DNA of 61,779 nucleotides, counting the filler, from Rhabdomonas costata (taxonomy: Eukaryota), in assembly GCA_019059605.1 (NCBI GenBank). It is 26 parts of 26 records of this genome, joined end to end, with 100 filler letters (N's around TTAATTAATTAA, not from the genome) between each part and the next. Parts side by side here need not be neighbours in the genome. Positions count along the whole stretch, not along the records: positions 4,766 to 7,047 come from JAHMHO010004307.1; 25 more parts are not named here. One strand, written 5' to 3'. Made by a program: the position numbers and the translations under genes. The notes below the pieces were generated by a model. The model had not been told where the DNA came from, made no database searches, and saw only the letters and a list, made by a program, of their open reading frames with translations. Positions within the stretch are counted from its first letter, which is position 1. Each line of letters begins with the position of its first letter. This document shows positions 2,590 to 40,373 of the stretch, in pieces.

Positions 2590-3923
2590 CACAGCCGCTC
2601 CATGTCCTTCCAGCTGATAACCTCCCCGTCCCGCACGGGAACAGACACGGAGAGGCACCCACGCTTCTCCTGCGCCAGGTCCCCGACGTAGAACTCCTGA
2701 GCATACGGAGGGTGAGCAGATGCCATCCGGTACGCTGGAGAGATGTCGGGATGAGGGGGGGGGGGAAAACTCATACAATGCATGTGCTAGATAGTTTTCA
2801 TTGCTTTTCATTGCAGGGTGTGACCCCGAATGTTGAAGCACCAAACCCGTTCCGATTGCATTTAATTTTCCTTATACTGATGAGGTAAGGGGATTTTCGT
2901 CAGAAAATTAGATGGGGGTTGCCCTGCTTCAACCTACTTACTACTACCCCTACCGTTCCACAAAAAAACTGCTGGACGTCACGTTCACCCAACCCGGATA
3001 TGTCGCCAAGGTGCAAAAGTGTTGTCCATGTCACCTCCAAAGTCACAGCCGAAAAATAGGCACTTAAAATGAGACTTACAAACTAAAAAGGGGTGGTGAA
3101 AAAACTGGATATTTCCTGCCTCTCTGACTGAACCAGAAATGGACCAGGGAAAGGGTGCTGGGAAAAAATGGAAACCTTTTGCGGTTTGGCGGCATGATAT
3201 CAACCCCTTCCATACACACACAGACGCAAACATAGAGTGCCGCAGGATATTAGGGACATCGGAGAGCGCGTGTGGACGTAGGAGGCGTTCTGATAACTTG
3301 AAACAAAAGTACGTTACAAAGTAAACTCAGAACTGCACCCCAACACATGACTGGGTTTAAACTGGGCCTTACGTGGCCTTCTCAGGATACAGCTGGTGGC
3401 ACAATCCACAATTCGCTTCAAAAATGAACACAACCACGGAATCACCCGAAAAAATCGCCTTCGGCACACTCGTCTCTTCGAAGTTCCCCGCGTCTAACTG
3501 TTTCTAGGCCCAGCACCAAGAAAACTTTCTGCGTTCACCACTCAACACGTCCCCAGAGAACGGCATTTCTATAGGCTAAAAAGACTGACGAATGGAATAC
3601 CATTTTCTGAGTTTCCGGGTGTCATTTACCTCACATCATCATCAAACCACTGCATTTCATGACATCAAGCTTCCAGGTGGAATAATTAGCACATTCGGTT
3701 GACCCCATTCCCTCTCTGGGGTGGGTAGCGTCTGGACCCTGTCTCCGGTTGCCATCACCACGCCCATGTTGCGGGGCTCCCCGACGACGCACGGGAACAC
3801 CGCCCGCGGGGCGTGGTCTCCGGCGTACCCCGCCTTCACCATGTGCCCCCCGTTGTCGATCACCACCACGCGGGCGGAGCCCCCCGCCCCCACGGCAGGA
3901 GACAGAGGACTGGCCATGGCCAT
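2590..3923 (-). CDS. Divergent actin / actin-related protein, 5' part (exons 3923-3738, 2696-2590)
   Basis: Spliced translation [33 protein letters not shown]...[38 protein letters not shown] follows the actin N-terminus across a GT-AG intron. DNGSG>DNGGH suggests an Arp rather than conventional actin. Confidence 0.9.
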
Positions 3924-5339
3924 CCCTCAGAATTTGATACTCGAGCTGGGGGACGGAGCCGAAGTTGGGAGAAAAGAAGAACGCAAAAGCGGGAGCTGAG
4001 AAGGACAACACCTTTGCCTTTCGTTGCTCATTTCCCCCACACAAATACCGTTTCATACCACTGCGTGAAGTGCAGTACAGTGTTATGGTTGGGAAGGAAG
4101 GATTGCATCTATGGAGGATTTTGGCACTAGGAGCCTTCAACCATCCCAGTCCATCAGATAATAATGGAGATGCAAGAAATGGAAATCTGAGGCGGGCCAG
4201 AAGCTAGTGGCTAAGGAGCAAGGACTGCAATGCACGCTTAGGTGCCTGGTCCGTGCCTGGTCCTGGAAATGGCTCTTATGAGCTCGGACAAAATACAGGC
4301 AAGGGGTTGTGACACCTTCAACACAGCAGAGCTAGAACGAAAAGAAAAATCCTGCCTTTTCCCAAAATTCGCGGTGCAAGACGCGGAGGGACCCAGCATG
4401 TTCTCGCCACGGGTCACGGTGTTGGGAAGAGCAACACACCAACCTTTCTGGGGGTTCTCTCCCTCGACGCTCAGGCACACAAAACAAGAAAGGGATTTGC
4501 GCCTCTACCCTACAAAAGACTATACAAGTAACTTAAAACAAGCGATTGATGCACTGGGTGCAAAGGACAATTCTGGATGTCTCGTCAAGCGGCACGCGGC
4601 CCCGCTTGGGGTCAGTAATTGGGGGCGATGTAGGGGTTGATCGGAGGCGGGCGGTACCCAACCACNNNNNNNNNNNNNNNNNNNNNNNNNNNNNNNNNNN
4701 NNNNNNNNNTTAATTAATTAANNNNNNNNNNNNNNNNNNNNNNNNNNNNNNNNNNNNNNNNNNNNGGTTTTGGTGAAACTTTAATATAAAGAACTCCTAC
4801 AAATATAGTTGTGGTAGCTTTACGGTTTTCTAGCAAGTGTACACGTGCATCCATATGCGTGCGTGTAATTCCGTGAGAGTATGCTGGTGCATGTAATTAT
4901 AATGAGTCAGACTGCGATGCAAAGACGTCTGGAGTAGAATCTTGTGCTATGAACCGGGAAGTTTCCAGCGATAGGCCTCAAAAAAAGGTAGATATGCAAC
5001 AGTGTGAAGTGCATTTTGATCCGAAGCGAGACTTTTTTTTGGAAGCGAGAAGTGGACTGTCCGTCGCGAAAAGTGACAACCCAAATGTGCACATTAAATG
5101 AGACATTTTCGGAAGCTAAAAAGGAGTGGTGCATAAAACTGGTCCCACTGTGGAGGTGCTTTTGCTTCTTGTCGGCCTGTTCTTTGTGTACAGGGGCCTC
5201 AAACGCGGGGCATATTACTGTCGGAAAGTGCGGGCAACACCACTTCGGGTGACCCGCACCAGTGTAGACACTCATCACACTTGCGGCGTCTCGTGAGGAA
5301 GAAAACAGAGGGGGAAAGAGTTTGGGAATTTGGGCAATT

Positions 5340-5658
5340 GTCACGATACTGCACCCCCCCCCTCAGGCGAAGTGAAACGGCAGCTCCCCTCCGGCGAGAA
5401 GTGATGACACTACATGTGCACGTGTATCGCCACCTAACCTGAAGAAAGTTGCTGGGGGGCTCCGCCCCCAGACCCCTCGCACGTGCTTCGCCTTCCAGCC
5501 TAGGCATCGCCACCTACCTCCCTGCCTTTGCATTACCTTTTTCATTTTTAGCGTGCACCGCAATCTGGCGATGGAGGGAGGTGCAATATCTTTACTTCTG
5601 CACAAAGGGGGGGGGTGCAGTATTGTGACTCCTGGGGGAGTGGGAGCAGTATCGTGAC
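5340..5658. mobile_element. MITE-like element with terminal inverted repeats, inside the intron 3' of the last visible phzE-like exon
   Basis: GTCACGATACTGCACCCCCCCC (5340-5361) is inverted at 5607-5629 (1 mismatch), with a second partial inverted copy at 5646-5658. The interior is non-coding and contains GGGGGCTCCGCCCCC. Confidence 0.5.
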
Positions 5659-5743
5659 GAGAACCGAGTTTTCTCTTTGCACCCTCGACAACGTGAAGCA
5701 TCCTTGCGCTTTTGATGGAGGGAGGGAGGGAGCAGAGGCCCAC

Positions 5744-7008
5744 CCGTGACAGTGGGCGCAAACATAGAGTTCCGGAACAGGTCGATGACATCTGCACCGT
5801 CGTGAAAGCCGCTGAGGAGGTACTCCGTGTGCACCAGGGCGCCCATTTCCTTCACCAAAGGCCCCAGCACACTATTGTTTTGTTTTCGTTTTTTTTTGGT
5901 TCAGGTGTCAAAGGCTCTGGGTTTTCTGAGTGGACCAGAAAACCCACGCTTGATCTGCAGGAGCAAAGCAAAGGGTTGCCGCACATAAGTTGATGGGTGT
6001 TCGTCGGAAACTCACACAGCAGCAAATAGTATGCCGACGACGGTCAGTTCTTTTTCCAAGCAGCGATGCCCTTCAGTTCTCTTCTGCCCGTCAGCTCTGC
6101 CAGAATACTGGCATATACACATACCGACAGCTAAAGCAAAACAACAGTTCCCTGAAGAATGCGTGTTCGCCGCTTGGGCGCGTGAATGTGTGCATGCACG
6201 TGCATGTGCGCGTGCGTGCGCGTGCGTTGGCACCATTGTGCGCGGTTGCGGGGAAGGGGCCGGCCGCAGTGCACGTGTTGGGTGAGCCACCCATAGATGA
6301 ACTTTCCCCTTTCGCGTCGATGCATGGGACAGTTGTTTGACTGGCTACGTGAACTGAAGCCGATGCCCCGATGCCCTGGATGGAAGGTGGGTTTCTTTTC
6401 GTGCGCCATATACCTTCGCACTAGTCAGAGACAGAGTTTCCGTCTTTTGTTGTTCCCCTTCTTGGAGAGACTAAAAATTGGGATAATGGCCATGAAAGGG
6501 AAAAGGGAAAAGCAAGGCGGCGCTGGGAGCGGCGAGAAGGGGAGGGAGCGAGGAAGGAGGGCTGGGCCTCGTACTCTCCGCCTGTGCTGCACATCGCAGC
6601 CATCATCTTCAGCTCCTCGTCGGCGACCATCCACAACTCGTCGATCTCCTTCTCGTCCCTCAGGAAGGCCAGTAGGGCGGCCTTGGCCTCCGCCCTAGCG
6701 CGATGCACCCCACCCCCTTCGCATGCGTCCCAGCCATGCACAACCACGAAACCGCTGAAGGGCAGCTTGACAACAAACCAACTGACAAGCAACAAAGTAG
6801 AAGACATGATAGGCCACCTACACTGAGTGGGGGAGAGGGGGCACAGATTTATTGGCAACACAGTGGCAGCAAAAGCAAAAGCTCATCACATCAAAGGAAA
6901 AGGAAGAAGAGCGCGCTCTCCTCTCCTGAAATAGCATTTTCGCAGACCTACACTTACTTTCCATTGCCGCTGATTGAGTTGGTGGAGGACGCGGGCGCGA
7001 GCCCAGTC
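5744..7008 (-). CDS. phzE: PhzE/TrpE(G)-type anthranilate/ADIC synthase, internal exons (7008-6958, 6694-6575, 5871-5744)
   Basis: Spliced translation ...KAALLAFLRDEKEIDELWMVADEELKMMAAMCSTGG|DVLGPLVKEMGALVHTEYLLSGFHDGADVIDLFRNSMFAPTVTG carries the PhzE-family signatures KE.DEL.MV.DEELKMM, GP.LKEM..L.HTEY and FAPTVTG. Both GT-AG introns are phase-compatible. Confidence 0.9.
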
Positions 7009-7247
7009 CTGACACGGTGAAAGGGTGTGGGGCGGGGCACAACAACCNNNNNNNNNNNNNNNNNNNNNNNNNNNNNNNNNNNNNNNNNNNNTTAATTAAT
7101 TAANNNNNNNNNNNNNNNNNNNNNNNNNNNNNNNNNNNNNNNNNNNNTAGGGCTGAGGTCGCCTTCCTCTTTTCTTTTTGCCGGATTTTCGCTTGGGGAC
7201 AAGGGGGACAAGGGGACAAAGCGGAGCGGGAAGAGCAACGCAAGCAC

Positions 7248-9065
7248 CTTTCGGTAGATTTCCGTCTCCAGGGTGTACATGTGCACCGCGGCCACCTTGC
7301 CCTCGTCCAAGCCCTCCAGCTCCTCCTGCCCGCTCCGAAGGACCTCCGCGGCGAAGGCCCTGACCTGCCGGCGCACACTCTCCCCAGTAGGATGCACTAG
7401 AGCACAGCCCAGCGCCCGCAGCCACTCCAGGAAGGCCGCCTTCTCCTCCTTCTCCGCTGCCGCCTTTGCCTCCGCTCCGGATGTCTCTCTCTGCTGCGGA
7501 GTGGTGGACGCGTAGTCCACAGCGAAGTCAGCAGAGACCTGGCCCTCTGCTGCCTGGGAGTCCCTGTCTGTCCCTATTTGCTGGCCGGCACCACAGGCTT
7601 TGGCCCGCGGGCCGTGCACCTGCTGGAAGTGCCTCCACAGACTGAAGGAGCGCTTCCCCAGGAGAGTAGGGCTGCCCGGGGGCAGCGCAGAACCGCCCTG
7701 AGGCTCCAACTCGGCTTCCCCCGGAGTGGTGGTGTCGATGTCGGGGGAGTGACAGATGGAGCAGGCGGAGTCCAGGCACCGCTGAGGGTGCTCCAGGATG
7801 TCTTCCGTGCAGTGCATCGCCAGGTCACTTTTTTGACGAAAAAGAGCAAATAATGGCAGTGACACCCTCAAGAAAGAAACGCGTCACTGTTCTTTTCTTC
7901 TTTTCTTTTTGAATACTTCACTCGAGAAGTGCTCCGTTGCAAATTCCGTGATAGCATGTGTCATACCGTGAAAAATGAATACCGTGAAAAAACCCTCGAA
8001 CTTCCCCTAACGCGAAAACACGGGACACGCAGGGACACGCAAACCCAATCGAAAGTGCACGGTTAGATCATTTTTCAGGTACCAAGCCAAGTTGAGCGGC
8101 TGCCAGGACGAAACGCAAATTTTCAGGGAGTCGCTGGAAGCCCGGAGAGCCGTCCGGATTCGGCACAGGGACGAGATGGAGAAGAAATGGAAATCATGGA
8201 GCAACGGTTAGGTCTTCGTCGCGGTCTAGTCCGCGGTAGACGTGGAAAAGCTTATGTGCCCAGCGTCACCATGTTTCTCTACACATGGGTGCATGGTCGC
8301 GCATTCCTGGTAAAACATAGATGGTAAAATACAGTAGTTCGTCTTATGGAGCTCTCAGGTTGACATGCGCCATGCGCAAACGAAAAAGCTTTTGGACTTG
8401 TCACCTTAAAGGAGAGGAAGTAAGGCGACATTTTAGAGGGGAAGGAGGGTGCACTTGGTGATTCGGTCGCAGAAAGGGCAGTGGAAGTGCTCCGAGGTGT
8501 CCGTCAGTGCCAGCTCGCACAGCACCTCCTCCATGGTCTGCTCGGGGATGTCCGTGCTCTCCAGCGGGGCTTTGTTCTGCTTCTCGTTCACACCCTCGCC
8601 GAACTTCTCCGTGTTCGAAAGCACCGCCTTGGCGGGCCGGGCCTTCTCCAGCTCCGCGGCCAACCGAAGCCGATCTGCCCGCAGCCTTGCGATCTGAGAA
8701 GATGCCATATATTCAGACACTCTAACCAAAAGAACGGTCAGGGGAGCTACGGAACAACAACCGCCCAGTCTGTGTCCCCACCCTCCCTTATTTTGACTTT
8801 ACTAATTTCCTTTTTACAAACAACAACAAACGACAACGTCCAGTGCCCAAACCCCACAACGCCCTGCAGCACAAGTGCGACAGAAAGAATGACACAAATG
8901 AGAGAGGAGGTGACAATTGGAAAAGAACAACACGAAACATGTGCTCAGACCTCCATCAACTTCTCCCATTCGTCCAGCTGCGATTGCAGAAGATGCTCCC
9001 GTGGAGTCACCTCAACCGTGGTGAAGTACCGGGAAAGCGCGGTGACAAACCGTGGCGGAAGAACC
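7248..9065 (-). CDS. Multi-exon protein with a Cys/His cluster and the probable start of a mono-ADP-ribosyltransferase domain
   Basis: GC-rich exons at about 9065-8952, 8725-8454 and 7830-7248. HFHCPFC..CLDSACSICH cluster; the last exon ends AAVHMYTLETEIYRK|GT, resembling the A.x.YT.E..Y..LN..LR helix of ART domains. Confidence 0.5.
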
Positions 9066-9985
9066 TGAGAGACCACAGCCACCTATAACGACAAACTAAA
9101 CTCTTATCTCTGCCCTCAATCCCAAGGGGAAACCGACGAAAACACTCGCGAATCATCGCCTCGCCTCGCAGGGAAAGTAGCCAGGGCATTCCTGCCCATA
9201 ATTTGGGGAGCTCAAACCCTAAGTTCTCTTCAGGGATTCGCCTCTATGCATTATTGAAGAAACAGGAAGGGATGGCCACGGTTCGTATGAAAGAGGGTAT
9301 CAACTTCAACCTCAACCTCAACATCAACCGGTGGTCCACTATCCAAGCACGTTGACGATGCCAAGGCAATGACTTCCACGTCACCCTGGACTCCCGGACA
9401 ATTGAAAAAGCGATGACAAAACACCCACANNNNNNNNNNNNNNNNNNNNNNNNNNNNNNNNNNNNNNNNNNNNTTAATTAATTAANNNNNNNNNNNNNNN
9501 NNNNNNNNNNNNNNNNNNNNNNNNNNNNNTCGTGATCCACGCGGAGCACGTAAAAACCACGAAGACAAGACTGGCGCCACAGCTCAGCAGAAAGTTGAAG
9601 GAGTACAAAGCGCTGCGAGGAGCAAAAGAGGTATACGAAGGATCCATCCCACCGTCCGATCGGAAAAATGCAGAATACGCCAACCCCTCACCCATCGTCT
9701 CTCCACAGTCGAGTGCAAAGCAACACTTAAAAAACGTGGGATATCAAAGACCTACACATCGCAATCAGGATGAGAAAACTCTCTTGAAAGTAGTGCCTCT
9801 TCATTAGTTTCTGTCCTTTTCACGGCACGGTGGGTCATTTGTGACAATTAAATACACACCCCTCGGACACATAAAGGAATCTCGGATCTCAATCCATTTC
9901 AGAGGAGCAGAAATACATAACAAAAATCAATAGATGCTGCAAAAAATACAGACATCACAAACATTCCAAAACTCCCAAAGCACAC

Positions 9986-11805
9986 CGCAGGGTACTGGCC
10001 GTGTTGGGTAGGCAGAAGGCATAAGTGCTGCTGCCGTTTCCAGCCAGAGTGACGTTGGTCGGCTTCGATGCGGGGCTCCACGCGCCCCACTCCACGGTGC
10101 TGGGCCGCAAGGCCTCGCTGTAGTCACACCAAAAAGGCGCAAAGTACTCCACGAAGTTCACCTGAGACAGAGGGAGACCAAGAACCTTCTGGGGAGGAAG
10201 AAAAGGAGGGGGCGAATGTGTACCAGAAGGAACAAAGCTTTTTGAACGAAGCCAGGTCTCACTTTTTTCTGATCTCTTGGAATTTCCTCTGCCCATCACT
10301 GTGGTGGTGAGTCCACTAAGGAACTCATTTTTCTTTGTCACTGGCTCTGAGCCGGCAGCCATGAGAAAGAGAAAGAGAGAGAGAGAGAGAGAGCGGTCCT
10401 GCTCCGGCCGAGGCCACACTGGAACCTCCCGTACTTACCGGGAGTCTCAAAATTCGGAGCTGAGAGAACTCTGCACAACAACAATCCAAGCCGCAGCCTT
10501 GCGGTGGGGGGTGGGGGCTCCCCCAGAGAAAGCCCCATCGTGGAGGAGTAAAGGACCGTAACCAAATATCTCTTTGGAAGGGGGATTCAGGTTGCAGCTT
10601 TTTCAACAGTGGACTCAATTTATAAATTATGTGCAGGACGTATGAGTTCAATGTGTTCAAAAACCTGCACAAAAAGGAGCAAAACACAACACAACACAAC
10701 ACAACACAACACAACACAACACAACACAACACAACACAACACAACACAACACAACACAGCACAACACACACGCAAAGGGTCCCCTGCTATTTATGTACAA
10801 CGCAACAATAGCCCCTATTCAAGACCATAGTAGAATAAAACAGCTGGGCCCATTGGCTCTGACAGCGCACATGGCGGCTGGGGAACAGCGACACGGAGAA
10901 AAAACAGAGCAGGACCATTAACAACGAGTCTGCAGCCGATTTCGATTGACACGATTACCATGAAAACAAAACAGAATCAGCGAAAGCAGCATCGCAACGG
11001 ACCTCGTGTCGTACAAAAACACTCCCCATTGGTCCAGCTTGTTTGCTTCCCTTCGTATACACAACGGCGGATGGAATGGGGTGACGAAAAAAGAGCAGAG
11101 GAAAGGCTTCTTAAATGGCGTCTTTTCACCTTTTCAATCGTAATCTAATCAATCATGTTTCAATCATAATTGATGAAATTCAAACATGAACGCATCATTC
11201 GGGGGGATCTCGCCCGCAGAGGCGGGCGTGTGCTTGCAAAAAAAGAGGAAGAAAAGTGCCATTACGGAAGAATAAGTGCAGAGCAGGCGCAGCAGCATCC
11301 ACAGCAGCGGGGTGCCTTTCGGGCCTTTGCCCGCCTCAAGGGGCCTACAGGCCCCCATTTTGCGAAAAGAAGATCACAACTACAACACCAGCCGTCACCT
11401 CATCAGCACGCCATTAGCATCCATTGGGTGGGCCATCCTGCTGCTGATGCTGATGAAATGAGTGCTCGAGCTGTTCACGCTCCTTTCGGGCGTACAGGCC
11501 CACTCGTGCCTGCTCTAGCGTAGGTGTGGATCTGCTCTACCCGCCCTCCCCCTCCACCATGAACGGCATCCGGAAGAACAAAAACGACAACGCAAAGAAG
11601 TAGAAGAGCCATTACGGAAGAAGAAGCACACCGTGCCGAAGACAAGAACGCAACCCACGGTGATCACAAGGGCCCCCGTGAGCAGGGCAAGAAGAAGCAC
11701 CCCGCGCCGGGCCTGCTTCCATCCAGGAAGCGAGCGGAGCTCCGTGAAGCTAGAGGTGATCCGGCTGCGCGTCGCCGAGACTACCTCCGTGGGAAACCGC
11801 TCCAC
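9986..11805 (-). CDS. Exons of a probable type II membrane / surface protein of unknown function
   Basis: TM segment GVLLLALLTGALVITVGCVLVFG (about 11700-11635) and an AG/GT-bounded exon at about 10161-9986 (VNFVEYFAPFWCDY...). Confidence 0.35.
10684..10768. repeat. (ACAAC)n pentanucleotide microsatellite
   Basis: Directly visible tandem array of about 16 units. There is also a (GA)n tract at about 10363-10393. Confidence 0.95.
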
Positions 11806-12849
11806 AACACCNNNNNNNNNNNNNNNNNNNNNNNNNNNNNNNNNNNNNNNNNNNNTTAATTAATTAANNNNNNNNNNNNNNNNNNNNNNNNNNNNNNNNN
11901 NNNNNNNNNNNAAATATTTTCTCCTTATCGCTGGATCCGTCCAAGGAGGGATTGAGACGTAGAAGGTTCAGCGCTCGGTTTATTCGAAGCCTTGCTCAAC
12001 CTTCAATCAGGTTTCGCATCAGTTTCGTTATCTACCAACCACCCATGCGATGGAATTTCAAAAAAAAATGTCGAAATTAGTGTTTCATTCAATTAACCTT
12101 GGCCGCTTCGTTATCACACTGCCAATGAACATGTCACTGACAAGTTGCGCTCGGATTTGTTGTCTGTCACGTCTCAAGAATTGCGCTGATATATGCGTGC
12201 AACCGTTGTATTCAGTTCTCCGAGTTTTGGTCTGTTGGGTGCCTTGTCAAAAATTTGAGGTAAACTTCACAAAGAAACGGGGGGGCTTCACCTGACTTCG
12301 GTGGGGCTAAACGACGATCGAGTGTAAAAGCGTTTCCCGACAGCAGGGGTTGATATTTTGGCTGGATGCGATCATGGACATTTTGCCTTAAAAATATTCG
12401 GGGTTCCAGAAAAACGCTTTTAGGCTTTTCAGGGACTCCATAACAAAAGATGAATGCGTACACGTCTTCCAAAATCTGAGAATGGCCCATTCCCAAGAGA
12501 TTCACCCCAAGATAGCCAGTAGCGTGGTTCCCGAACCTGCTCGATCCTTTCGTTGCTTTGTAAAAGCTCACCCTCATTTCATGTCAGATTCATCACGTTA
12601 CTTTAGGTCAGGTTCACTTGTGTTCATGTCAGATTCTCCTCCAATATTATCTGCTAACTAACAATGGCGTTGGGCACCTTACCACTGCGCAATAATGTCA
12701 CAATAGCGATTTCAATGAACGTTTCCTGGTCTTTGTTATGACGGCAACTGGAGAAGGATGGAAGATTAATCCCATAACCTTTTGTAACCCCCTGCAGTTT
12801 ATCTGCTTCGTAACCAAACTGAAACAGCACTGAAAAAGGGAAGTGTTAC

Positions 12850-13802
12850 CTTGCCCTCCACGGAGCGCTCGGGGATCAGTGGATCCATGTACACCGGCAG
12901 GTGCTTTTTCTGAAGCGTTGAGTATGCCACCCGATCCATTGCAAGGAACAGCATGGCTCTGGGAGGCGCGCCACTCGTCGCCTTTCTCAAGGAGCACCAC
13001 AAATTAAGACCGAGGTCATGCCAACCCCCATTCACAGGTATTATAAGCACGGTGTCCCCTCCGATTCCCTTCGAAGTTGCCAGAAGACCCGTCACTGCCT
13101 CAAAACCTGAAAAACAGTGCCGGCAGCGATGCATTTTTACTCTAGGAGGAGGGAGGGTTCGGAAAGGACGTTAAATTGTTGCGCCAGTCTATCAGCTTCG
13201 GAGGGTACAGTGACGGCTGCATGTCTGGCACAACGCTAGACCAAGGTTTTCGTATGGGCAAAAATGTCCTGCAGACATGAGGGGTGATGAAATGTGGTCC
13301 AGAGATTACATATTTATCACGGGGAAAAAGCATTCCCCGTGAGGCCAAGCGCAAAACGAATTTTTGCAAAAAAAAAAAGCCTCGAACAGAAGGTATGGCA
13401 AAAGTCAGATACTGATGATGTGCCGGGCTGCCGCAGACGTTTTCGTGGACAGGAGAGGAACTACGTGCACAGAAGGGCGAACACATGCACAAGAAGTCAT
13501 GCATGCATTCATAGAAATGCTTAGTCAGAAACGAAAATGCACGGCACACCAGCCACTGGGCCTTCGAAGTTGCTTGCACCACCGCTTGAATTGCGGTGTT
13601 CCGAATCAGTAGGGGAGGGTAAAACAGGTAACGGGAGCTGGTCACTTTCCAGTTGTCTGCTTGGTGCCACATCCACTTGGTCAACGCCCACTCGTTGGTG
13701 GAGAATGCGGGACAACGTGGATGACCACCAGTACCCAAGAACACCAACCACTGTCAATGCCAGCAGCCACACCCCAAGGGACAGCCGAGGTCGTCTTGCC
13801 AT
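12850..13802 (-). CDS. Putative GT77-like nucleotide-diphospho-sugar transferase, 5' exons
   Basis: Type II anchor MARRPRLSLGVWLLALTVVGVLGYWW, then an exon VLIIPVNGGWHDLGLNLWCSLRK...MLFLAMDRVAYSTLQKKHLPVY, matching the N.G..L..NW.CS...L..A.D pattern of the PF03407 family. The DxD exon was not identified. Confidence 0.5.
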
Positions 13803-14812
13803 TCAAAACCCTCCACCACTTTCACAAAGGCATGAACATGAAGGAAAAGGCACCAGCTGTAAGCAGGGATGCACAAACAAGTGCTGTCGGCCACTGACGA
13901 AATTACTTTACGTTCCTCATTGTTGGAGTTTTTGTGCGCAGAGGTTAAAATAGAGGCAACAACGAGCTTTTTTTTTGTGTTGTGAGCTTTTCTTCGTCAA
14001 GTGGCAGCGCTTCTAACCGGGGCTGCAAGAGGCGGCACCTACATACATGTGGCCTCTGTTGGTCTCTAGGTGGTGCTCAAGGAGATTCTTTATTGCATGA
14101 TTTTCAAATCGTCAAAGTATACTTTGCGAAGGCCAATGATTACATCACACAAAAATGTCAGGTGTTCAGCTTCAGAGAACGAGAAACACANNNNNNNNNN
14201 NNNNNNNNNNNNNNNNNNNNNNNNNNNNNNNNNNTTAATTAATTAANNNNNNNNNNNNNNNNNNNNNNNNNNNNNNNNNNNNNNNNNNNNGTTGGTTGGG
14301 TATTTAGCCCCCCCCCCTCTCCCGCACTCTTCCAACTTTCGCCTTTCGCCGCCTCGGCAAATGAGTTCTGGTGTCTGAGGATTTCCGAAAATTATTGAGA
14401 CGTAGCTGTTGCATTTTCTGTGAGCTGTTGTCGTTTCATTGCCTATTGCGCGCCCGTCCCACCTTCTTGTGGACGAGTAATGGGTCTGCGCCTTGTTCGG
14501 GATGCGGTATTTTTTGTGCTTTTCTTCCCTTATGGTTTTTCTATCAGTGCCAGCGGCGTGCGGATGTTGCCCCCCCCCCACTGTCAACCCTCCCGCAGAG
14601 TGTCGGTATTATTTTCGGTCCTGAGGTGTGTGTATGCGCATCATTTTGTATTTTGCGTTGTGTGTATCTCCGTTGTGTCTGCCTGTGTCTATGTTGTTTC
14701 CTCATTACTTAGCTTTGTTTTCTCTCCCCATCTCTCTCGGTGCTCCGTGGGTTGGTGAGTCCGCTTCGCCTGTTTCGCACAATCACGCTCGTACTCACAC
14801 TCACACACGCAG

Positions 14813-15670
14813 GTGGAGCTTTGACGACGCCGCGCTGGTGACCCACTCCCCTCACTCCATGAATGGACTGTTTGCCAGCATGACCATTCCTCCGATCGCG
14901 ACGAACGTCAAGCTGGATGTGGATAACCCGTTCTACAATCTCTTTCAGCGGCAGCTCATCGTCCCTGTCCAAACCGCCACTGGGAACCTTACTCTGGGGC
15001 TACTGGTCATTCAGGACTGGACTCGGACATTGTATCCCGTGGTGCGTGCTGATCTCTGATGCAAGCCCCATCCCCACCGCCGGATCATTTCGCTAATCAA
15101 GAATCTTCTGTATTTAGTCCATTCTCTATGAGTCACTGCCGCTCTGCAGTTCGCAGCCACGATTCACAGTGACTGTCGCCCACAAAAAATGCTTTGGGTC
15201 CCTTCATCCAGTATGGTTACGTTTTCTTCACATGGATGTATCCTATGCATGTGAGGAGACATTGGGTCGCCAGCAGCTGGTCTAAATGGTTGGAAGGCGG
15301 AGGGGGCACAGACCTAAAACGGAGGAGAGGTCGACAACTGAGCCCCCACCCCTTACAAGGTTTCCGTATGGGGCCCAGTCTTTGATGCCAAGTTTCTCCT
15401 CCTTGTGCTATGCGTTTTTTCTTTGGGCACGTTGCGTTGTCATCGTTTTGGTGGGGTCTGTATGGGCATAGTTCAACGCAGTCCCGCTGCTGGCGGTGGT
15501 GCTGAGTCAGCTGAGGGAGTTCTACCACGTCGACCTCACCGTTGTAATGATGGGGAGCACCTTCAACCCGGAGTGGGATGTGCTGGTCGGGCTGGACATT
15601 GATGTGCTGGTCACGGGAACGTCCAACAATTACAGCCTTCTGCAACCTCCTCCAACACAATACGTCAACG
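14813..15670 (+). CDS. Degenerate 5'-nucleotidase-like (calcineurin-like phosphoesterase fold) domain, exons 14813-15041 and 15472-15670
   Basis: IPPIATNV..., NLTLGLLVIQD, QLREFYHVDLTVVMMGS and LDIDVLVTGTS align in order with the P.L.AN, KIG.IG, VD.II.LSH and IDVIVGGHSH motifs of 5'-nucleotidases. Phase-0 GT-AG intron. Confidence 0.55.
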
Positions 15671-17264: not shown

Positions 17265-18945
17265 GTGATCACCTACAACATTCCTAACATGACCAGCCCG
17301 CTAAACCTCTCCAGAAGTCTTCTAGTGGATATCTGGGCTGGTATGGTGTTGGTGGGTTTTTCTTATATGGGTTCCGTGATGGGGAGTGGTGGCTCTCCGC
17401 ATCGATTTGTTCTTCTTGTCCTCCTCTCCTCTTCGGTGTGTGCAGCTGTGCTTCATTTCTGCCCCCCTACCCTGCTCCTCTATCTTCCTTTTCTTCCTTT
17501 TCTCCTCTTCTATTTCCCACATTTTCTGCGTCCCTCCCCGCTCATTTGAACAGACCCCTGGAAGTTCTCGTTTTATGGCGACATCAAAGAGGTTTCCTGA
17601 GCAAACGTCTGTTTCCTTGCCCTTGAGCCTGCCCATACGATGGAACAAACAGGTTTTGCAGTCTCTCCAAAGGGGTGTTTGCAGACACTCAAAGTCCAGC
17701 CTGGTCGGGCGTATGGGTTGACCGACCCCAGAGTCAGTCTGCAGCTCTGTTACAATCTGAGTGGAGTCGAGCGCATCCAAAAAAAATCACAGGAAGAGTA
17801 ACCACTCTGTCCGACCCGACCTTGAAAGCCCTTAACCCTGGCCTCTCCGCGACCTCTCCGATCACGGTGGTGGTCCCTCCGGTGTGTATGGCTGGATGAG
17901 TTGGTGGGTTTTCGCGCGTGTTTAGCATTGATTTGACATGTGGTCTTCTGACTCTAACGCGCTGGCTTCCTCCGTTTTCACGCCTGTCGGCAGTTCGTGT
18001 GGGGGATTCGTCTCGGTTAGGTTTTGAAGGATTTTACTGTCTGCATCGCCACAGAGATCCCACTGACTCGATGTTCTGTGGGTTCTGTGTGTGTTCCTTG
18101 GTCACAAGGCCCAGGCTGCTTGCTGGGGAGCTTTGGAAGAGATTCGAATCTGGGGGGGGGTTCGCGCATGGCAGACTTTGGGGCGTGTTGTGAGAATGAC
18201 CGAATTTTTTGACCAACAACAGCATCCCGTTTGCTTTCCTTGCCTTGAGCATGGTGAAGTAATTCCCTTATAACAACAAAAATTTCGAGACGTAGAAGAT
18301 TAGGATTACAGATAATTTGTGGTCTTTTGGGCCAGGCCTGCAGTTTGTACCTCAGCACAGGACAACATGCCCTGCTTTGCACGCACGCACGTACAGGGAA
18401 GCTCCGCTCTGACCCAGGCCTTCACCTCGGCGCTGTCGACCTTCAGTTCATCGTGGAAGGCACAGTTTGGGACCTTTATGGACAGCTCAGGGTTCGCCGC
18501 CTCCGCGGCGACCATTGTGTATTCATCCTCGGTATGCATGTGGGTATTGCGTGCTTGCGCGCCGCTCCTTCCCAGAGAACTGGCATTTGTATGCGTATCG
18601 GTGGTGACAGTCGTGTCTAGCAGCTGCAACCTCAACGGGGATTCCTCGCGAATCTTACAGGGGAAGGTGGCCGAGCCTTCCTCCTTACAAGACTTCTTTT
18701 GCTTACCGTTTGAGCATTTCACGCGAACTGCCCTCGGAGCTATGCAATGATTACTCCCCCCCTGGACTGTCGAGTCCATTCTTTCTTTTCTTTGGCGCAG
18801 TGCCACAAAAAGACAACAAGAGCCGTCGTCCCGGAAGAAAGAACCCGGCATAGTGTTTTCCGGCTTCCGCAGGTTGCCGGCATTCCCTATGCCGTGTCCT
18901 ATGTCCCCTTGCTCGAGGTGGTGACACAGGCTCTGCCCTTCACCA
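17265..18945 (+). CDS. PstS-like periplasmic binding protein (PBP type 2) domain, exons 17265-17340, 17793-17881, 18397-18531, 18873-end
   Basis: Spliced VITYNIPNMTSPLNLSRSLLVDIWAG RVTTLSDPTLKALNPGLSATSPITVVVPP GSSALTQAFTSALSTFSSSWKAQFG...VAGIPYAVSYV matches PstS YNLPG..L.L....L..IF.G.I..W.DP.I..LNP...I.VV and GAIGYV. Three phase-compatible GT-AG introns. Confidence 0.8.
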
Positions 18946-19934
18946 CCCAACAANNNNNNNNNNNNNNNNNNNNNNNNNNNNNNNNNNNNNNNNNNNNTTA
19001 ATTAATTAANNNNNNNNNNNNNNNNNNNNNNNNNNNNNNNNNNNNNNNNNNNNAACGTGTTGGAACGTGATGGAAATGTTTTTTGTAACTCTTGTCTTGC
19101 CTCCCGCACACACACACCTTCTACTGAAGGTGACTGCGCACTTTTTGGCTGGAGCTTTGGCACCAGTCAGATACGCGCTTTGGCCCACGGGGGATATACA
19201 ACCCGTCAAGCAAGCTGTTATTGGGGATAATAAGCAACGTTCTGGGCAAGTTCTTAGCAAACATAATTTCAAAAGGGCACACGTTTTTTTTCTGCATATT
19301 ACGTGCACTTCTTGAAACATTGCACATCCGTCGTTGCAAGCTCAATTCTTTCATTCCGGCTTCTGAAGGGTTCTTTTCGTCTTATTATTCTTTATGGTTT
19401 TGCAGCAGGCGAATGACCACGCACGCCACCTCCTCCTTCAGCCCCATTTGTGATACCTTGCGTAGACTGGTCCAGCGATGCCCTGCAATAGGTTGTTGTG
19501 GCTCTTCCTGCATTTTCCTCCACTCAATAGTGATGTTGTCGTTCACTTCGTTGTATGTCCTTGTTCACAAGTTATGTGGGTGTTAGCACTTACTGCTTTG
19601 ACTTGAGACCTCTGGCACCCTCTCCAGGTCCGAAAATGTGGGAGGGAGTCGTCCTGAAAAACCAGTCCAATACACGAACCAGGTATTTTCAGGGTGTCTG
19701 AAAATTTTCGCAGTTTATATTTTTTATAAAAAGTATTTCAGCTGGGTTCTGGGGCATTATGTTCCGCAGGTGCAGCTGCACAGGTTATAAACACTTGCGA
19801 ACCGCGCTCAAAGATATTGTGGTGGCACAACTGGTGGCACTCTCAAAGTATGAAGGAGATGTTAGTCATCACCTCACTTACCAAGTGTAATCTTGATGCC
19901 GGGTTGAATGCATCGCTTCAGCTGAGCGATGGAC

Positions 19935-30989: not shown

Positions 30990-33040
30990 GGCAGTCGTGG
31001 TACCCCATTCGAAGAGCCTCACAGCATTGCAACAAAACGGCGATGGCGACTGCCTCGGAGCGGAGGGAGACTGCTGTGCATGTCCGCACCATTGCGTGGG
31101 CCACCTGCGACCACCCATCCAGCAAAATTTGCACCCAAAATATACACACACCCAACAACTCCTTGGCCACACTATAAGTTTACCACATCCTTTGAAAGCG
31201 TTATCGATAGTTGCACTCTTGGCGACCTTTGACCAGACAAAGAAAAAAAGAGAGCAACCTCTTCCGGTCCATCCTCGGAATCGAAGCTCAGCTCCGAGAG
31301 GTCATCATCCAAACCGTCACTCTCACTCTCGTCATCTTCCTCCACCTCCTCATCTCCGCTAGCTTCCTGATCGGAGCCATTGACGCACTCACCATCCGCA
31401 TCGGACTCCGCTCGCTCGACAACACCGCTCACCTCGTCTTCATTGTAAACCCCTGGTCCGGGTGACGAATCTGGACAGTAAGTTCCGCAGTCATCGCCTT
31501 TGGAAGAGGTGCATGATAAACAATGGAGACCATGACGTGGATCGAGCTCCACCACCGGCAAGGTTCTGCGAAAGTTTTGGGAACTGCTCCACAGGCCCCT
31601 GAGCCTTGCAAGGACTAGTAGACCGCGGTTGAGCAAAGGAAACCCAGCACGAAGGGTTACCCAGCCGAAGAACCCACCTGAACGTATACAAAGAAGCCCA
31701 TATTGAACTCGCGTGTATCTTTTTGGTCTCTCGTAGACCTTCCTCATTCCTCTGAAAGGCTTTCGGGAATCTACTGCACAACAAACCACCAGGGGAAATA
31801 ACAGGGGTTTCGCAAACGAAACATCGTTAAATTGTACAAAAGCGCGCAATTAAACGAGAGCGGGTGAAGGAAAGTTGAAAGGAAAAGCCTACCAAGCCCT
31901 AAACGCTGAGGTAACTGACTCCGAGGGTCCCCAGGGTGAAAACAAACCCACTGCCCACAAACCTTTCTCCTTTCCGGGTCGATCCACTCGCCGACCCATG
32001 TGTGCCAAGAAGAATGCCGTCGCGGGGTCAACGGGCTTTTCGGCCGGAGCGAAAGGAAAGCGAAGCCTGCACCCCCTGTCGCCCCTTCCCCACGGCTCCA
32101 CAAAGCCGTACCGTGTCAGCAGAGCGAAGGTGCTCAGCCCCCGCCCGTAGCACAGAGTCAGCTCCTCCCCTACGCAGATGTCAGCCCTTGCCCTCAGGCG
32201 AGCCTCCACACCCATCTCTCCGCTGCCGGGCTCCAATGCATCACTCAACCACACCACCGTAAGCTCACAGTTGGCCTCCCTCCAGCTGCGATGGTTCAAG
32301 TTATCCACCATCGGGATCATCAACCACACCCCAGAGTCCTGCGTCAGGCAACCCTTCTCAGTAGGACGTATGCGGACGGTGTGTTTGGTGGCGCTCCTCT
32401 CCATTATCGTACAGGCATACCGACTTCACAGCACACTGGTCAAAACTGTTTCTTCTTTGATGATAAAAAGCAACTAGTACCGGAGCCGTTGAAGCCAAGG
32501 TGGGGGTTGCTAAAACACAAAAGCCCAAAGGAATCGAATTTCGAACTCACTAACCACAATTTGTAACTTCTGTTTGTTGCACCGACGTTGATTCCTGGAG
32601 GGGGTAGGCTGCTACGGTATAGTCATATGCCCAAACACATCGTCAAACAGCCCCTCCTCTGGACTCACAGCATCACCCTTGGAAGGGGCCAGAAAGCAGC
32701 GGGTGCGGATCACCGAGACGGCCCACACCCACTGCGCTTCTGACGGGGCAGCGCACACCCGCCCGCTACCCACGGGAATTACGTTTGCTTTCAGAGACAC
32801 CAGCCGGAGCCATAGCGGGATGAGTATCTCCCGGTGCCACCGCAGTACACGCTCCCGCCTCCTCAGGCTGCTCTCCAAGGCAGGGGAACCCGAGAGGTGC
32901 GCAACCAGCTCAGCAGAGGTCCACGTCGGGGGTCTCCTCAGGCAGGTCCCTCAACAGTGCAGAAAGCGAGCCGCACTCCCCACAGGAGCCAACCCCGAAG
33001 GCCCTCAACCACAGCAGGGTCACGGCCAGCACAGCCCACG
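30990..33040 (-). CDS. SET-domain protein-lysine methyltransferase (Rubisco-LSMT/SETD3-like), several exons, one apparent frameshift
   Basis: WTSAELVAHLSGS, WVWAVSVIRTRCF, IPMVDNLNH, GEELTLCYG...LLTRYGFV and a C-terminal VSLRSEAVAIAVLLQCCEAL; acidic linker at about 31440-31260. Confidence 0.8.
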
Positions 33041-38600: not shown

Positions 38601-39632
38601 ACCGTGTCGCTGGTTAAGTGCTTCATGGACAAGGCGAAGAGTGGCATCGTCCACGCAGACTCGAACAAGCGCATACACCAACTCATACAAACCCACATGT
38701 CACATACACTCGGGAATCAGGACAACATCTCACACAATAAAAAAGCTCAGGAACTGCGCTGCTCTCACGGTGGGAAGGGCAGCTGGAAAGTTGGAAGGGC
38801 CCGACAAACCCACGCCAATACCCAGAAGGGCTCAACATCACCAATGGAGCTGTTCTGAGCACCACGGTGAAACTTGGTTCTGAGCACCACGGTGTTACTT
38901 GTGACCGTGTGTGGGAAAGGGTCACGCCAATCTGTCCATTTATGTGTGTGACCGTATTTGTATGTATTTAGGTCTGCTTGGAGCGTGCTGCAGTCTGCAG
39001 AGCACGGGTGTGAAATAGTATGGATGTGTGTTATTTGCCTGCTCGTCTTGTGCTGCGAGGGTAAAAATTGCCCGCTGTGCATCAACAATGCAGTGCACTT
39101 GCGGAGGTGTGTGTGAACAGAGGAAGCATCTGGGATTGGTTTGTGGTCTGGGATTGAAATGCCGGGGTCTAAATCCGAACGAAAAAAATGGACCACACTC
39201 TCTGAGTGAGAGGTGAGAAGGGAGAGGTAGCCGCAAAAAAAAGAACCGACAGAGGAGAGAAAAGCGCCTCCGAAAGAGAATACCTCCACCTCCGCTGCGG
39301 TAAGGTCTACGTGCGGAGACACCTTACCAAGCCGCAGAAGCGGACGCCGGGGGAATGACCACACGCTCCCACGCCAAGGAGAGAGAAAGCGCGCGCATCG
39401 CCGGCTTTTGCGCAAGTTCATACCAAGGAAGCTACCACATACTAATTACAAAAAGAAAACCGAATAAGCCCCATCTTCACACCACAAAAACACACGAAAG
39501 AACGAACGAAAGTGGAAGCAATGAACGCTGCCCTGCGTCTGTGTGGTCGGTTGGTCAGTTTCCAGGAATCTTATAGGAGCTGATCACCTGCGGGGTGGAT
39601 CCTCCCGCAACCGTCAACCTTTTCGGCTGGTT

Positions 39633-40373
39633 TCATGGAGTGGTGGGAAACTCCAAGTCGCCCGATAGGAGAGCCTGGGCCATCCTAAGCCTCTTTAGCC
39701 GACCTCGCCGCGCCGTGGTGGTAATGTGCCGGTGATGGTGCTGCTTCTGCCGCGGGGAGGCCGCCCCACTGCATCCCGGGGAGCCTCCGCTGAGCTCCAT
39801 GTTCGACCGCACCCCCACCTCCACACCGACGCACACTGAGGTTCGGCCCAGAAACGGCCCCAGGTCCAGCCCCACGTTGACATCCACCCCGACATCCACG
39901 TCGACATCGGACTTGCCCTGCATGCCATTTCCAGCACTGCCCCCGCAGCCCTTCGAGGGAAGGCTGACCGCAATCTTCCCGAAAATGGGAGAGTGCGCCA
40001 TCCACCGCCTCAGCAACGCAGCACACACCCGAGCAGCGGTGGCAACAGAAGCCGAAGCATTTGAGGGTCCCAAGGGAGACTTCTCGGGAGGCTTCTCCGA
40101 GGGCAGGGAAGGTTCCGGCAGCGATGGAGACGGCGACGGCGACGCGGATGGCGAGGACAGAGGCGGGGGAGTGGTTTGGGAGGAAGTGGTGGTGGAGCAG
40201 GGGAATGACTGATGGCAGTCAGGTGGTGCTCGCGCGGCGAACGGCCGGTGGTTACCAAATGTGCAGGAGCGAGGGCGGTGGGCGGTGGTTACCAACGCGC
40301 CGCTGAAGGGGGGGCCCTCTGGCCCAGCGCTGGGATCCGTTTCAAACCCATTGGGGTCGGCCGCAGTGACCAA
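39633..40373 (-). CDS. Low-complexity Pro/Ser-rich hypothetical coding segment (strand uncertain)
   Basis: 246-codon GC-rich open frame running off the contig end. No recognisable domain; an overlapping + strand ORF is equally plausible. Confidence 0.25.
   Translation of the reverse strand: MVTAADPNGFETDPSAGPEGPPFSGALVTTAHRPRSCTFGNHRPFAARAPPDCHQSFPCSTTTSSQTTPPPLSSPSASPSPSPSLPEPSLPSEKPPEKSPLGPSNASASVATAARVCAALLRRWMAHSPIFGKIAVSLPSKGCGGSAGNGMQGKSDVDVDVGVDVNVGLDLGPFLGRTSVCVGVEVGVRSNMELSGGSPGCSGAASPRQKQHHHRHITTTARRGRLKRLRMAQALLSGDLEFPTTP

What the first reader, a model, noticed from the sequence alone, without database searches (positions are those of the whole stretch)
5744..7008. Bacterial PhzE-type chorismate enzyme domesticated with spliceosomal introns in a protist
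Seen: three exons joined by phase-compatible GT-AG introns give LLAFLRDEKEIDELWMVADEELKMMAAMC..GGDVLGPLVKEMGALVHTEYLLSG...SMFAPTVTG. Known: DEELKMM and HTEY mark the PhzE/fused TrpE(G) subfamily (ADIC synthase of phenazine biosynthesis and related actinobacterial anthranilate synthases). Canonical TrpE and the usual eukaryotic anthranilate synthase alpha have KE.AEH.MLVDL.RND instead. Inference: horizontal transfer into the nuclear genome, with the introns arguing against contamination. It either replaces the normal Trp-pathway enzyme (a single-chain anthranilate synthase was described biochemically in Euglena) or feeds an ADIC/phenazine-like secondary pathway not described in protists. The six-frame ORF track splits and hides it.
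Basis: partly seen in the sequence, partly recalled or inferred. Interest (0 to 1): 0.8.

Follow-up and report, generated by a model that had tools for sequence, protein, structure and literature searches.

The report
Euglenid gene fragment, PhzE-like anthranilate synthase
Two intron-separated exons on a small unplaced contig belong to a euglenid nuclear gene for a single-chain, bacterial-type (PhzE-like) chorismate enzyme that most likely starts tryptophan synthesis and whose relatives are already present in public Euglena and diplonemid data.

Summary
The core observation holds. On the minus strand of a 2,282-base contig (4766-7047), two exons (about 6694/6754-6575 and 5871-5744) are split by a 703-base GT-AG intron. 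Joined, they give 85 residues with no stop, keep 31 of 31 family-invariant positions, and are 77-78% identical to transcript-derived proteins of Euglena gracilis, E. longa and Chasmostoma.

The family call is right. Full-length relatives (about 620-660 aa, chorismate-binding domain followed by a glutamine amidotransferase) match the PhzE crystal structure at E 1e-112, against 2e-14 for TrpE.

The gene is not a phenazine PhzE orthologue. Euglenid, diplonemid, chromerid and one dinoflagellate sequence form their own clade, separate from the clade of bacterial genes that sit next to phzD. The window carries 0 of 5 signature residues of that clade. Some bacterial members lie beside trp genes or are the only anthranilate synthase candidate in their genome.

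Best reading: the single-chain anthranilate synthase of Euglenozoa, of bacterial origin and inherited vertically. This is a new member of a known kind, of moderate interest. There is no RNA evidence from this organism, and the product (anthranilate or ADIC) cannot be read from sequence.

The parts
6575..6702 (-). Conserved part of exon B (profile positions 221-263 of the PhzE-like family; carries the K-E-I-D-E-L and DEELKMM motifs). It ends in phase 2 before donor GT at 6574-6573. The true 5' end is open: the exon starts at 6754 (acceptor AG 6756-6755, good pyrimidine tract) or at 6694 (acceptor AG 6696-6695).
5872..6574 (-). 703-base GT-AG intron (donor GTACGA, acceptor ...AACAATAG). It has stops in all frames and shifts the reading frame between the two exons.
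5744..5871 (-). Exon C (profile positions 263-308; carries HTEY and F-A-P-T-V-T-G). It ends in phase 1 before donor GT at 5743-5742. No further exon is detectable in the remaining 978 bases of the contig.
6958..7008 (-). It is phase-compatible but has no homology support, so it is probably not the real N-P-I-S-G-T exon.
4766..7047 (.). The whole contig that holds the gene fragment. It is bounded by artificial N44-TTAATTAATTAA-N44 linkers, and the neighbouring contigs are not genomic neighbours.

Best explanation
The contig carries two internal exons (about 13%) of a nuclear, intron-containing euglenid gene. The gene encodes a single-chain enzyme of the PhzE-like subfamily of chorismate-utilising enzymes: an N-terminal chorismate-binding domain fused to a C-terminal class-I glutamine amidotransferase. 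The glutaminase domain would pass ammonia to the chorismate site, which makes 2-amino-2-deoxyisochorismate and, most likely, also eliminates pyruvate to give anthranilate, the first step of tryptophan synthesis. The gene came from bacteria before euglenids and diplonemids diverged and has been inherited vertically since. Shown: the exons, the intron, subfamily membership, the placement inside Euglenida, and the separation from phzD-linked PhzE genes. Inferred: the fused amidotransferase in this organism, anthranilate as the product, and the direction and age of the transfer.
For: Exons and splice; 31 of 31 family-invariant columns are kept. Subfamily: exon B alone finds 31 proteins at E<=1, and 29 of the 31 carry both PF00425 and PF00117 (one has PF00425 alone, one has no domain on record). 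PhzE 3R74 matches at E 1e-112 against TrpE at 2e-14. In P0001 and P0003 the chorismate domain is at about 100-400 and the amidotransferase at about 447-640. Host and vertical descent: the fragment is 77-78% identical to Euglena gracilis, E. longa, Chasmostoma and an environmental sequence, 68% to Entosiphon and 58-64% to diplonemids. In the 31-row tree it lies in Euglenida (99), Diplonemea is 100, and the gene tree follows the organismal order with Entosiphon basal. Not phenazine-type: 33 of 80 bacterial loci have phzD directly upstream. All 11 of those used in the 67-row tree form one clade (100), apart from the eukaryotic clade (95). The window has 0 of 5 signature residues of that clade. 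Anthranilate synthase role in the subfamily: 4 of 80 loci lie next to trpD/C/F/B/A genes (L005, L017, L019, L028). In 3 of 5 genomes checked no canonical TrpE reaches its cut-off and the PhzE-like gene is the only candidate; Aestuariimicrobium has only this gene plus an isochorismate synthase. Euglena has a complete downstream Trp pathway on one polypeptide (passage in PMC2395257), and diplonemids and euglenids keep the shikimate pathway (passage in PMC7052976). A single-chain Euglena anthranilate synthase (Hankins and Mills 1976) is recalled only and was not seen in any call.
Against: The join therefore rests on homology and on transcript-derived orthologues of other species. Only 85 codons are visible, so the amidotransferase domain, the rest of the active site and the intactness of the gene are unseen. 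The expected N-P-I-S-G-T exon was not found on the contig. Sequence cannot distinguish anthranilate from ADIC as the product: a passage in PMC5958127 states that the sequences give no indication why anthranilate synthase eliminates pyruvate and PhzE does not. Two of the 5 bacterial genomes (Desulfopila G001, UASB14 G004) have a canonical TrpE as well as the PhzE-like gene, and the Desulfopila copy sits among acyl-CoA genes, not trp genes, so the subfamily is not uniformly the primary enzyme. G002 and G005 are metagenome bins of unstated completeness. Whether this euglenid also has a canonical TrpE/TrpG was not testable. The sister group of the eukaryotic clade is unresolved (open forks), so no donor can be named.
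Confidence: 0.7

Rival explanations
1. It is a true ADIC synthase (PhzE/SgcD-like function) that feeds an undescribed secondary pathway in euglenozoans, while tryptophan synthesis uses another enzyme.
For: The closest solved structure is the ADIC synthase PhzE. Sequence gives no rule that separates ADIC synthases from anthranilate synthases (passage in PMC5958127). Two of 5 bacterial genomes keep a canonical TrpE beside the PhzE-like gene.
Against: The eukaryotic clade is outside the phzD-linked clade, and the window has 0 of 5 of its signature residues. Members outside that clade are trp-linked or the sole anthranilate synthase candidate. The gene is kept in phototrophic, osmotrophic and phagotrophic euglenids and in diplonemids, as expected of a housekeeping step. 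No paper with both PhzE and Euglena was found.
Confidence: 0.08
2. The contig holds a decayed or partial paralogous copy (a pseudogene fragment), not the working gene.
For: The upstream region shows a degenerate look-alike of the N-P-I-S-G-T motif with four invariant residues changed. No further exons were found in 978 bases downstream or 345 bases upstream. The database search with exon B returned no identical protein (best hit 78%).
Against: Both exons are free of stops and frameshifts, keep 31 of 31 invariant positions and have intact GT and AG sites that restore the conserved GGD. Introns longer than the remaining flanks would explain the missing exons equally well.
Confidence: 0.12
3. The contig is bacterial contamination of the assembly.
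For: The subfamily is overwhelmingly bacterial.
Against: A 703-base insert with stops in all frames and GT-AG ends splits a stretch that is continuous in every bacterial homologue. The fragment is 77-78% identical to euglenid transcripts against at most 65% to any bacterial row, and it nests in Euglenida.
Confidence: 0.02

Closest known systems
PhzE, ADIC synthase of phenazine biosynthesis (Burkholderia lata structure 3R74; Pseudomonas phz operon, locus L074)
   Same: Same subfamily and architecture (chorismate-binding domain followed by glutamine amidotransferase, about 630 aa). Shares the DEELKMM and HTEY motifs. P0001 aligns over residues 12-633 at E 1e-112.
   Different: Not in the phzD-linked clade. 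The fragment is only 45-56% identical to phzD-linked members and lacks all 5 clade signature residues that fall in it. It is a eukaryotic, intron-bearing gene with no operon context.
Bacterial 'anthranilate synthase family protein' genes of the same subfamily that are linked to trp genes (L005 Rhizobiaceae bin, L017 Aestuariimicrobium ganziense, L019, L028)
   Same: Same fused architecture and motifs. They lie beside trpD/C/F/B/A, or are the only anthranilate synthase candidate in the genome. This is the function proposed here.
   Different: About 52-60% identical over the fragment. They are bacterial, intronless, and fall in other clades of the tree.
Transcript-derived orthologues in Euglenozoa (Euglena gracilis EG_transcript_5314 = P0003, E. 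longa P0036, Chasmostoma P0001, Entosiphon P0005; Diplonema papillatum 'Anthranilate synthase' P0044)
   Same: The same gene. The two exon-encoded segments are contiguous in these proteins with GGD at the junction, and identity reaches 78%.
   Different: The window's sequence is identical to none of them, so it comes from another euglenid lineage (outside the Euglena clade, weakly with Chasmostoma, support 80). It shows genomic exon-intron structure, which those transcript-derived records do not.
Canonical TrpE/TrpG anthranilate synthase (E. coli TrpE, locus L081; NCBIfam TIGR00564)
   Same: Same superfamily fold and presumably the same overall reaction.
   Different: Separate subunits. A different motif form at the same alignment columns. 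P0001 and P0003 score 86-103 bits against a cut-off of 517.7.

Membership tests
PhzE-like fused chorismate-binding/amidotransferase subfamily ('anthranilate synthase family protein') | Homology to the chorismate-binding domain, with the subfamily's invariant residues | tested here: met
   The family profile hits the two exons at E 1.2e-20 and 2.4e-21. 31 of 31 invariant columns in range are kept. Pfam PF00425 on exon B alone is weak (E 0.097).
PhzE-like fused chorismate-binding/amidotransferase subfamily ('anthranilate synthase family protein') | Closer to PhzE-type proteins than to canonical TrpE, PabB or isochorismate synthases | tested here: met
   29 of the 31 hits of exon B carry both domains; they are about 600-710 aa. 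The closest relative P0001 matches 3R74 at 1e-112 against TrpE at 2e-14.
PhzE-like fused chorismate-binding/amidotransferase subfamily ('anthranilate synthase family protein') | C-terminal glutamine amidotransferase on the same polypeptide | not testable with these tools
   The contig ends before that part of the gene, and no genome or reads are available. The domain is present in all euglenozoan orthologues retrieved.
PhzE in the strict sense (ADIC synthase of phenazine/DHHA pathways) | Belongs to the clade of genes that sit next to phzD (isochorismatase) | tested here: not met
   The phzD-linked rows form a separate clade with support 100, and the window lies in the eukaryotic clade. The window has 0 of 5 signature residues.
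PhzE in the strict sense (ADIC synthase of phenazine/DHHA pathways) | Releases ADIC without eliminating pyruvate | not testable with these tools
   This needs an enzyme assay. A passage in PMC5958127 says sequence gives no indication.
Canonical anthranilate synthase component I (TIGR00564, TIGR00565, TIGR01820) | Score above the curated cut-off of the model | tested here: not met
   Orthologues P0001 and P0003 score 86 and 103 bits against 517.7 for TIGR00564, and are likewise far below the cut-off for every other TrpE model.
Eukaryotic fused aminodeoxychorismate synthase (PabA-PabB, TIGR01823) | Amidotransferase N-terminal to the chorismate-binding domain, and score above the cut-off | tested here: not met
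   Scores are 55-73 bits against 442.55. The two matched stretches are in the opposite order to the model.
Conventional spliceosomal intron | GT...AG ends whose removal restores an open, homologous reading frame | tested here: met
   GT at 6574-6573 and AG at 5873-5872. The join gives 85 codons with no stop and the conserved GGD.
Conventional spliceosomal intron | Removal seen in RNA of this organism | not testable with these tools

The most novel reading that the evidence does not exclude
The euglenozoan enzyme is an ADIC synthase like PhzE and feeds an undescribed aminated-chorismate secondary pathway in protists. That pathway would be shared with chromerids and a dinoflagellate, and would be distinct from tryptophan synthesis.
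Probability: 0.08. Interest if true: 0.75.

Novelty: new member of a known kind. Interest (0 to 1): 0.42.

Why it matters
The fragment gives genomic, intron-level evidence that a bacterial-type, PhzE-like single-chain enzyme is a resident nuclear gene of euglenids. The trees show it is shared by euglenids and diplonemids and related to copies in chromerids and one dinoflagellate. If it is the anthranilate synthase, it would supply the gene behind the single-polypeptide Euglena enzyme that I recall from 1970s biochemistry. It would also mean that Euglenozoa run the first step of tryptophan synthesis with an enzyme from a different subfamily than plants, fungi and most bacteria. It would be a natural anthranilate-forming relative to compare with PhzE, for the open question of why PhzE stops at ADIC. 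My searches of the held library found no paper making this link, although database annotations already call some orthologues anthranilate synthase.

Tried and rejected
1. Searching the window's own genome for the remaining exons, a canonical TrpE or PhzD/PhzF: no genome is held.
3. Rfam scan of the whole window for host markers: 0 matches.
4. NCBIfam naming: no model reaches its cut-off for P0001, P0003 or P0006. The best is the fused Rhizobium-type NF010081 at 148-163 bits against 645, so there is no curated equivalog for this subfamily.
5. My first guess, an apicomplexan fused PabA-PabB, was rejected by the hits and the domain order.
6. The first tree contained a window row that I had spliced one base out of frame in exon B (3 stops, long branch). 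I corrected the coordinates and rebuilt a 31-row tree. The relations among the other rows are still used. It held 38 of the 80 loci, which I picked to represent each gene context.
7. Papers on PhzE structure and on the fused Streptomyces venezuelae enzyme (PMC3093893, PMC4268259, PMC4303589) are not held.
8. The 1976 Euglena enzyme paper was not found.
9. Earlier notes of this scan: none.
10. Pfam on 9 other long open frames of the window: no hits.
11. Supplements of Butenko et al. 2020 (PMC7052976), which tabulate amino-acid pathway genes per species, could not be seen. They may already list this gene or a canonical TrpE.

Full report
What the window is. The 61,779 bases are a chain of about 26 contigs of roughly 2,280 bases each, in roughly descending length, joined by identical artificial linkers (44 N, TTAATTAATTAA, 44 N). 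The finding lies on the contig at 4766-7047. The stretches to either side are other contigs and say nothing about its genomic neighbourhood.

The observation. Translating the minus strand in three frames shows the quoted peptide segments in two different frames. tblastn with six family proteins finds exactly two significant pieces in the whole window, 6574-6711 and 5733-5885 (E from 2e-9 to 1.5e-18). Every other match has E 0.048 or worse. A profile built from 16 family members (alignment A1) was run against all 93 stop-to-stop pieces of the contig. It hits only these two pieces (E 1.2e-20, profile 221-263; E 2.4e-21, profile 263-308), and the next best piece has E 5.

The exact boundaries are: exon B ends at 6575 before GT at 6574-6573; exon C starts at 5871 after AG at 5873-5872; exon C ends at 5744 before GT at 5743-5742. 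Removing the 703-base intron gives 85 codons with no stop. It also recreates the G-G-D that stands at this point in the Chasmostoma and Euglena proteins. All 31 family-invariant columns that fall within the fragment are kept.

It is phase-compatible with both possible acceptors of exon B (AG at 6756-6755 or 6696-6695). But neither tblastn nor the profile detects it. It would alter M209, P211, T215 and R217, which never vary in A1. A second N-x-I-S-G look-alike lies about 20 codons further on in the same frame. I treat the third exon as unconfirmed and note the two look-alikes as unexplained. No downstream exon is detectable in 4766-5743.

What family it is. Pfam on exon B alone gives only a weak chorismate-binding hit (E 0.097). 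A database search with exon B finds 31 proteins at E<=1, and 29 of the 31 combine PF00425 with PF00117. The best are eukaryotic transcript-derived proteins, JGI records auto-named 'phenazine biosynthesis protein phzE', and actinobacterial 'anthranilate synthase family protein'. The closest relative, P0001, matches the crystal structure of PhzE (3R74) over residues 12-633 at E 1e-112; the best TrpE, PabB and salicylate or isochorismate synthases reach only 2e-14 or weaker. In P0001 and P0003 the chorismate-binding part lies at about 100-400 and the TrpG-like amidotransferase at about 447-640. No NCBIfam model reaches its cut-off, and the fungal PabA-PabB model matches in the opposite domain order. 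E. coli TrpE shows the ...E-H-L-M-L-V-D-L-A-R-N-D... form where this family has ...D-E-L-x-M-V-x-D-E-E-L-K-M-M.... The statement about eukaryotic anthranilate synthase alpha subunits was not checked.

Whose gene it is. Cluster look-ups name the eukaryotic hits:
- Euglenids: Chasmostoma nieuportense, Euglena gracilis (EG_transcript_5314), E. longa, Entosiphon sulcatum.
- Diplonemids: Namystynia, Artemidia, Lacrimia, Diplonema japonicum, D. papillatum (named 'Anthranilate synthase'), Rhynchopus.
- Chromerids: Vitrella and Chromera.
- One dinoflagellate transcriptome: Gymnodinium smaydae.

The correctly spliced fragment is 77-78% identical to the two Euglena species, Chasmostoma and one environmental sequence. 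It is 68% identical to Entosiphon, 58-64% to diplonemids, at most 65% to any bacterial row and 45-56% to phzD-linked PhzE genes. In a 31-row maximum-likelihood tree (quick search, SH-aLRT only) it lies inside Euglenida (99), in a group with Chasmostoma and Euglena (95), but outside the Euglena clade (100). Diplonemea is 100, Euglenozoa 91, and all eukaryotic rows together 95. The window therefore comes from a euglenid other than E. gracilis or E. longa. The window's GC of about 0.5 and its very fragmented assembly are in line with draft euglenid genomes as described for Rhabdomonas costata (passages of PMC8219788), but I do not assign a species. The gene tree follows organismal relationships, which fits one acquisition before euglenids and diplonemids split. 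Kinetoplastids are reported to have lost aromatic amino-acid synthesis (passage of PMC7052976).

What it most likely does. I fetched 80 bacterial loci with 10-kb flanks and labelled their context.
- 33 of 80 have a PhzD-type isochorismatase directly upstream, several with PhzF and PhzG as well. The reference operon L074 was checked with Pfam.
- 4 of 80 lie next to trp genes. L005 is divergent from trpD-C-F-B-A, L017 is divergent from trpC-B-A, and L019 and L028 are near trpB-A.
- 27 of 80 have a second TrpG-like plus TrpE/PabB-like pair nearby.

In a 67-row tree rooted on E. coli TrpE, all 11 phzD-linked rows that I included form one clade (100), nested among actinobacterial sequences and well apart from the eukaryotic clade (95). 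The trp-linked rows fall in three other clades. That tree used 38 of the 80 loci, chosen by me, and its window row was partly mis-framed (see Tried and rejected).

Eighteen alignment columns separate the 33 phzD-linked sequences from 52 other bacterial and 17 eukaryotic-clade sequences. Five of these columns fall in the window's fragment, and the window has the phzD-type residue at none of them. This is a clade signature, not proof of chemistry.

In five bacterial genomes, all chorismate-binding genes were classified with Pfam and three NCBIfam models.
- Aestuariimicrobium (G003) has only the PhzE-like gene and an isochorismate synthase.
- Two metagenome bins (G002, G005) have it plus a PabB-like gene.
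- Desulfopila (G001) and UASB14 (G004) also have a canonical TrpE above the cut-off.

So the subfamily includes enzymes that must be the organism's anthranilate synthase, and also extra copies of unknown role. Euglena is known to carry the later tryptophan steps on one polypeptide (passage of PMC2395257 citing Schwarz et al. 1997). I recall, but could not retrieve, the 1976 report of a single-polypeptide anthranilate synthase-amidotransferase in Euglena (one search found nothing). The E. gracilis protein aligns with bacterial homologues from about residue 20, so it shows no long targeting presequence (inference). Together these points favour a single-chain anthranilate synthase. The caveat is firm: a passage in PMC5958127 states that sequences give no indication why anthranilate synthase eliminates pyruvate and PhzE does not, and that a PhzE homologue made a little anthranilate in vitro. 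Only an assay can settle the product.

Origin. The subfamily is otherwise bacterial (Actinomycetota, Pseudomonadota, Thermodesulfobacteriota, Myxococcota, Peregrinibacteria). Its eukaryotic members are confined to Euglenozoa and myzozoan alveolates, so transfer from bacteria is the economical reading. The nearest named bacteria by score are Desulfobulbales (42-44% identity to P0001), but the sister group of the eukaryotic clade is unresolved in both trees. Three unnamed proteins fall inside the eukaryotic clade: P0042 with Rhynchopus, P0047 with Gymnodinium, and P0037 alone. Their nature is open. The intron, the frame shift between exons and the euglenid placement exclude bacterial contamination for practical purposes.

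Novelty and score. The gene family, its architecture and eukaryotic orthologues are already in public databases, and one orthologue is annotated as anthranilate synthase. What this contig adds is the exon-intron structure in a further euglenid. I found no paper in the held library that links PhzE-type enzymes with Euglena or other euglenozoans: 0 papers hold both 'PhzE' and 'Euglena', and nothing relevant turned up. The supplements that might tabulate the gene were closed. I rate this a new member of a known kind, with moderate interest.

Noticed in passing
window 1-61779 (linkers at 2284-2383, 4666-4765, 7048-7147 and so on): The window is a chain of ~2.28-kb contigs in roughly descending length, joined by N44-TTAATTAATTAA-N44 linkers. 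Any apparent synteny across linkers is artificial.
   Followed up: yes
window 6915-7008, minus strand: Two look-alikes of the family's N-P-I-S-G-T motif (N-S-I-S-G-N and N-A-I-S-G-E) lie about 20 codons apart in one frame upstream of exon B. They use different codons, and neither is supported by the family profile. They could be chance, or remnants of a decayed exon.
   Followed up: partly
window 3657-3926, minus strand (a different contig): An open stretch matches the N-terminus of the actin family (PF00022, E 5e-11, profile 4-49). It is probably the first exon of an actin or actin-related gene.
   Followed up: partly
window 10683-10768: An (AACAC)n microsatellite with 17 copies and 97% matches. 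It produces long artificial open frames on both strands.
   Followed up: no
window 7150-7883, 18306-18953, 31172-31849, 38765-39445, 39633-40373, 47916-48575, 48576-49316, 50756-51556, 55653-56381: Nine open frames of 215-266 codons on other contigs have no Pfam match at E 0.001. Whether they are coding was not examined.
   Followed up: no
L070 (Desulfopila sp. IMCC35008) 4316-15576: In this genome the PhzE-like gene sits after thiolase-like, acyl-CoA synthetase and acyl-CoA dehydrogenase genes, and before glycosyltransferase and radical-SAM/methyltransferase genes. The genome also has a canonical TrpE and a PabB. This copy may serve something other than tryptophan synthesis.
   Followed up: partly
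27 of 80 bacterial loci, e.g. L010 12083-15144, L016, L021, L031: In many Nocardioidaceae and other actinobacterial loci the PhzE-like gene is followed, or in a few preceded, by a TrpG-like gene and a second TrpE/PabB-like gene. The role of this three-gene arrangement was not pursued.
   Followed up: no
protein P0037 (unnamed record, 232-kb contig): This 623-residue protein is 48% identical to the Chasmostoma protein and falls inside the otherwise eukaryotic clade, unresolved next to chromerids and Euglenozoa. If it is bacterial it could mark the donor lineage.
   Followed up: partly
proteins P0040, P0073, P0041: Chromerids (Vitrella, Chromera) and a dinoflagellate transcriptome (Gymnodinium smaydae) carry the same PhzE-like enzyme in one clade with Euglenozoa (support 95). 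This suggests a shared or secondary transfer between eukaryotes. The Chromera protein is longer (737 aa).
   Followed up: partly
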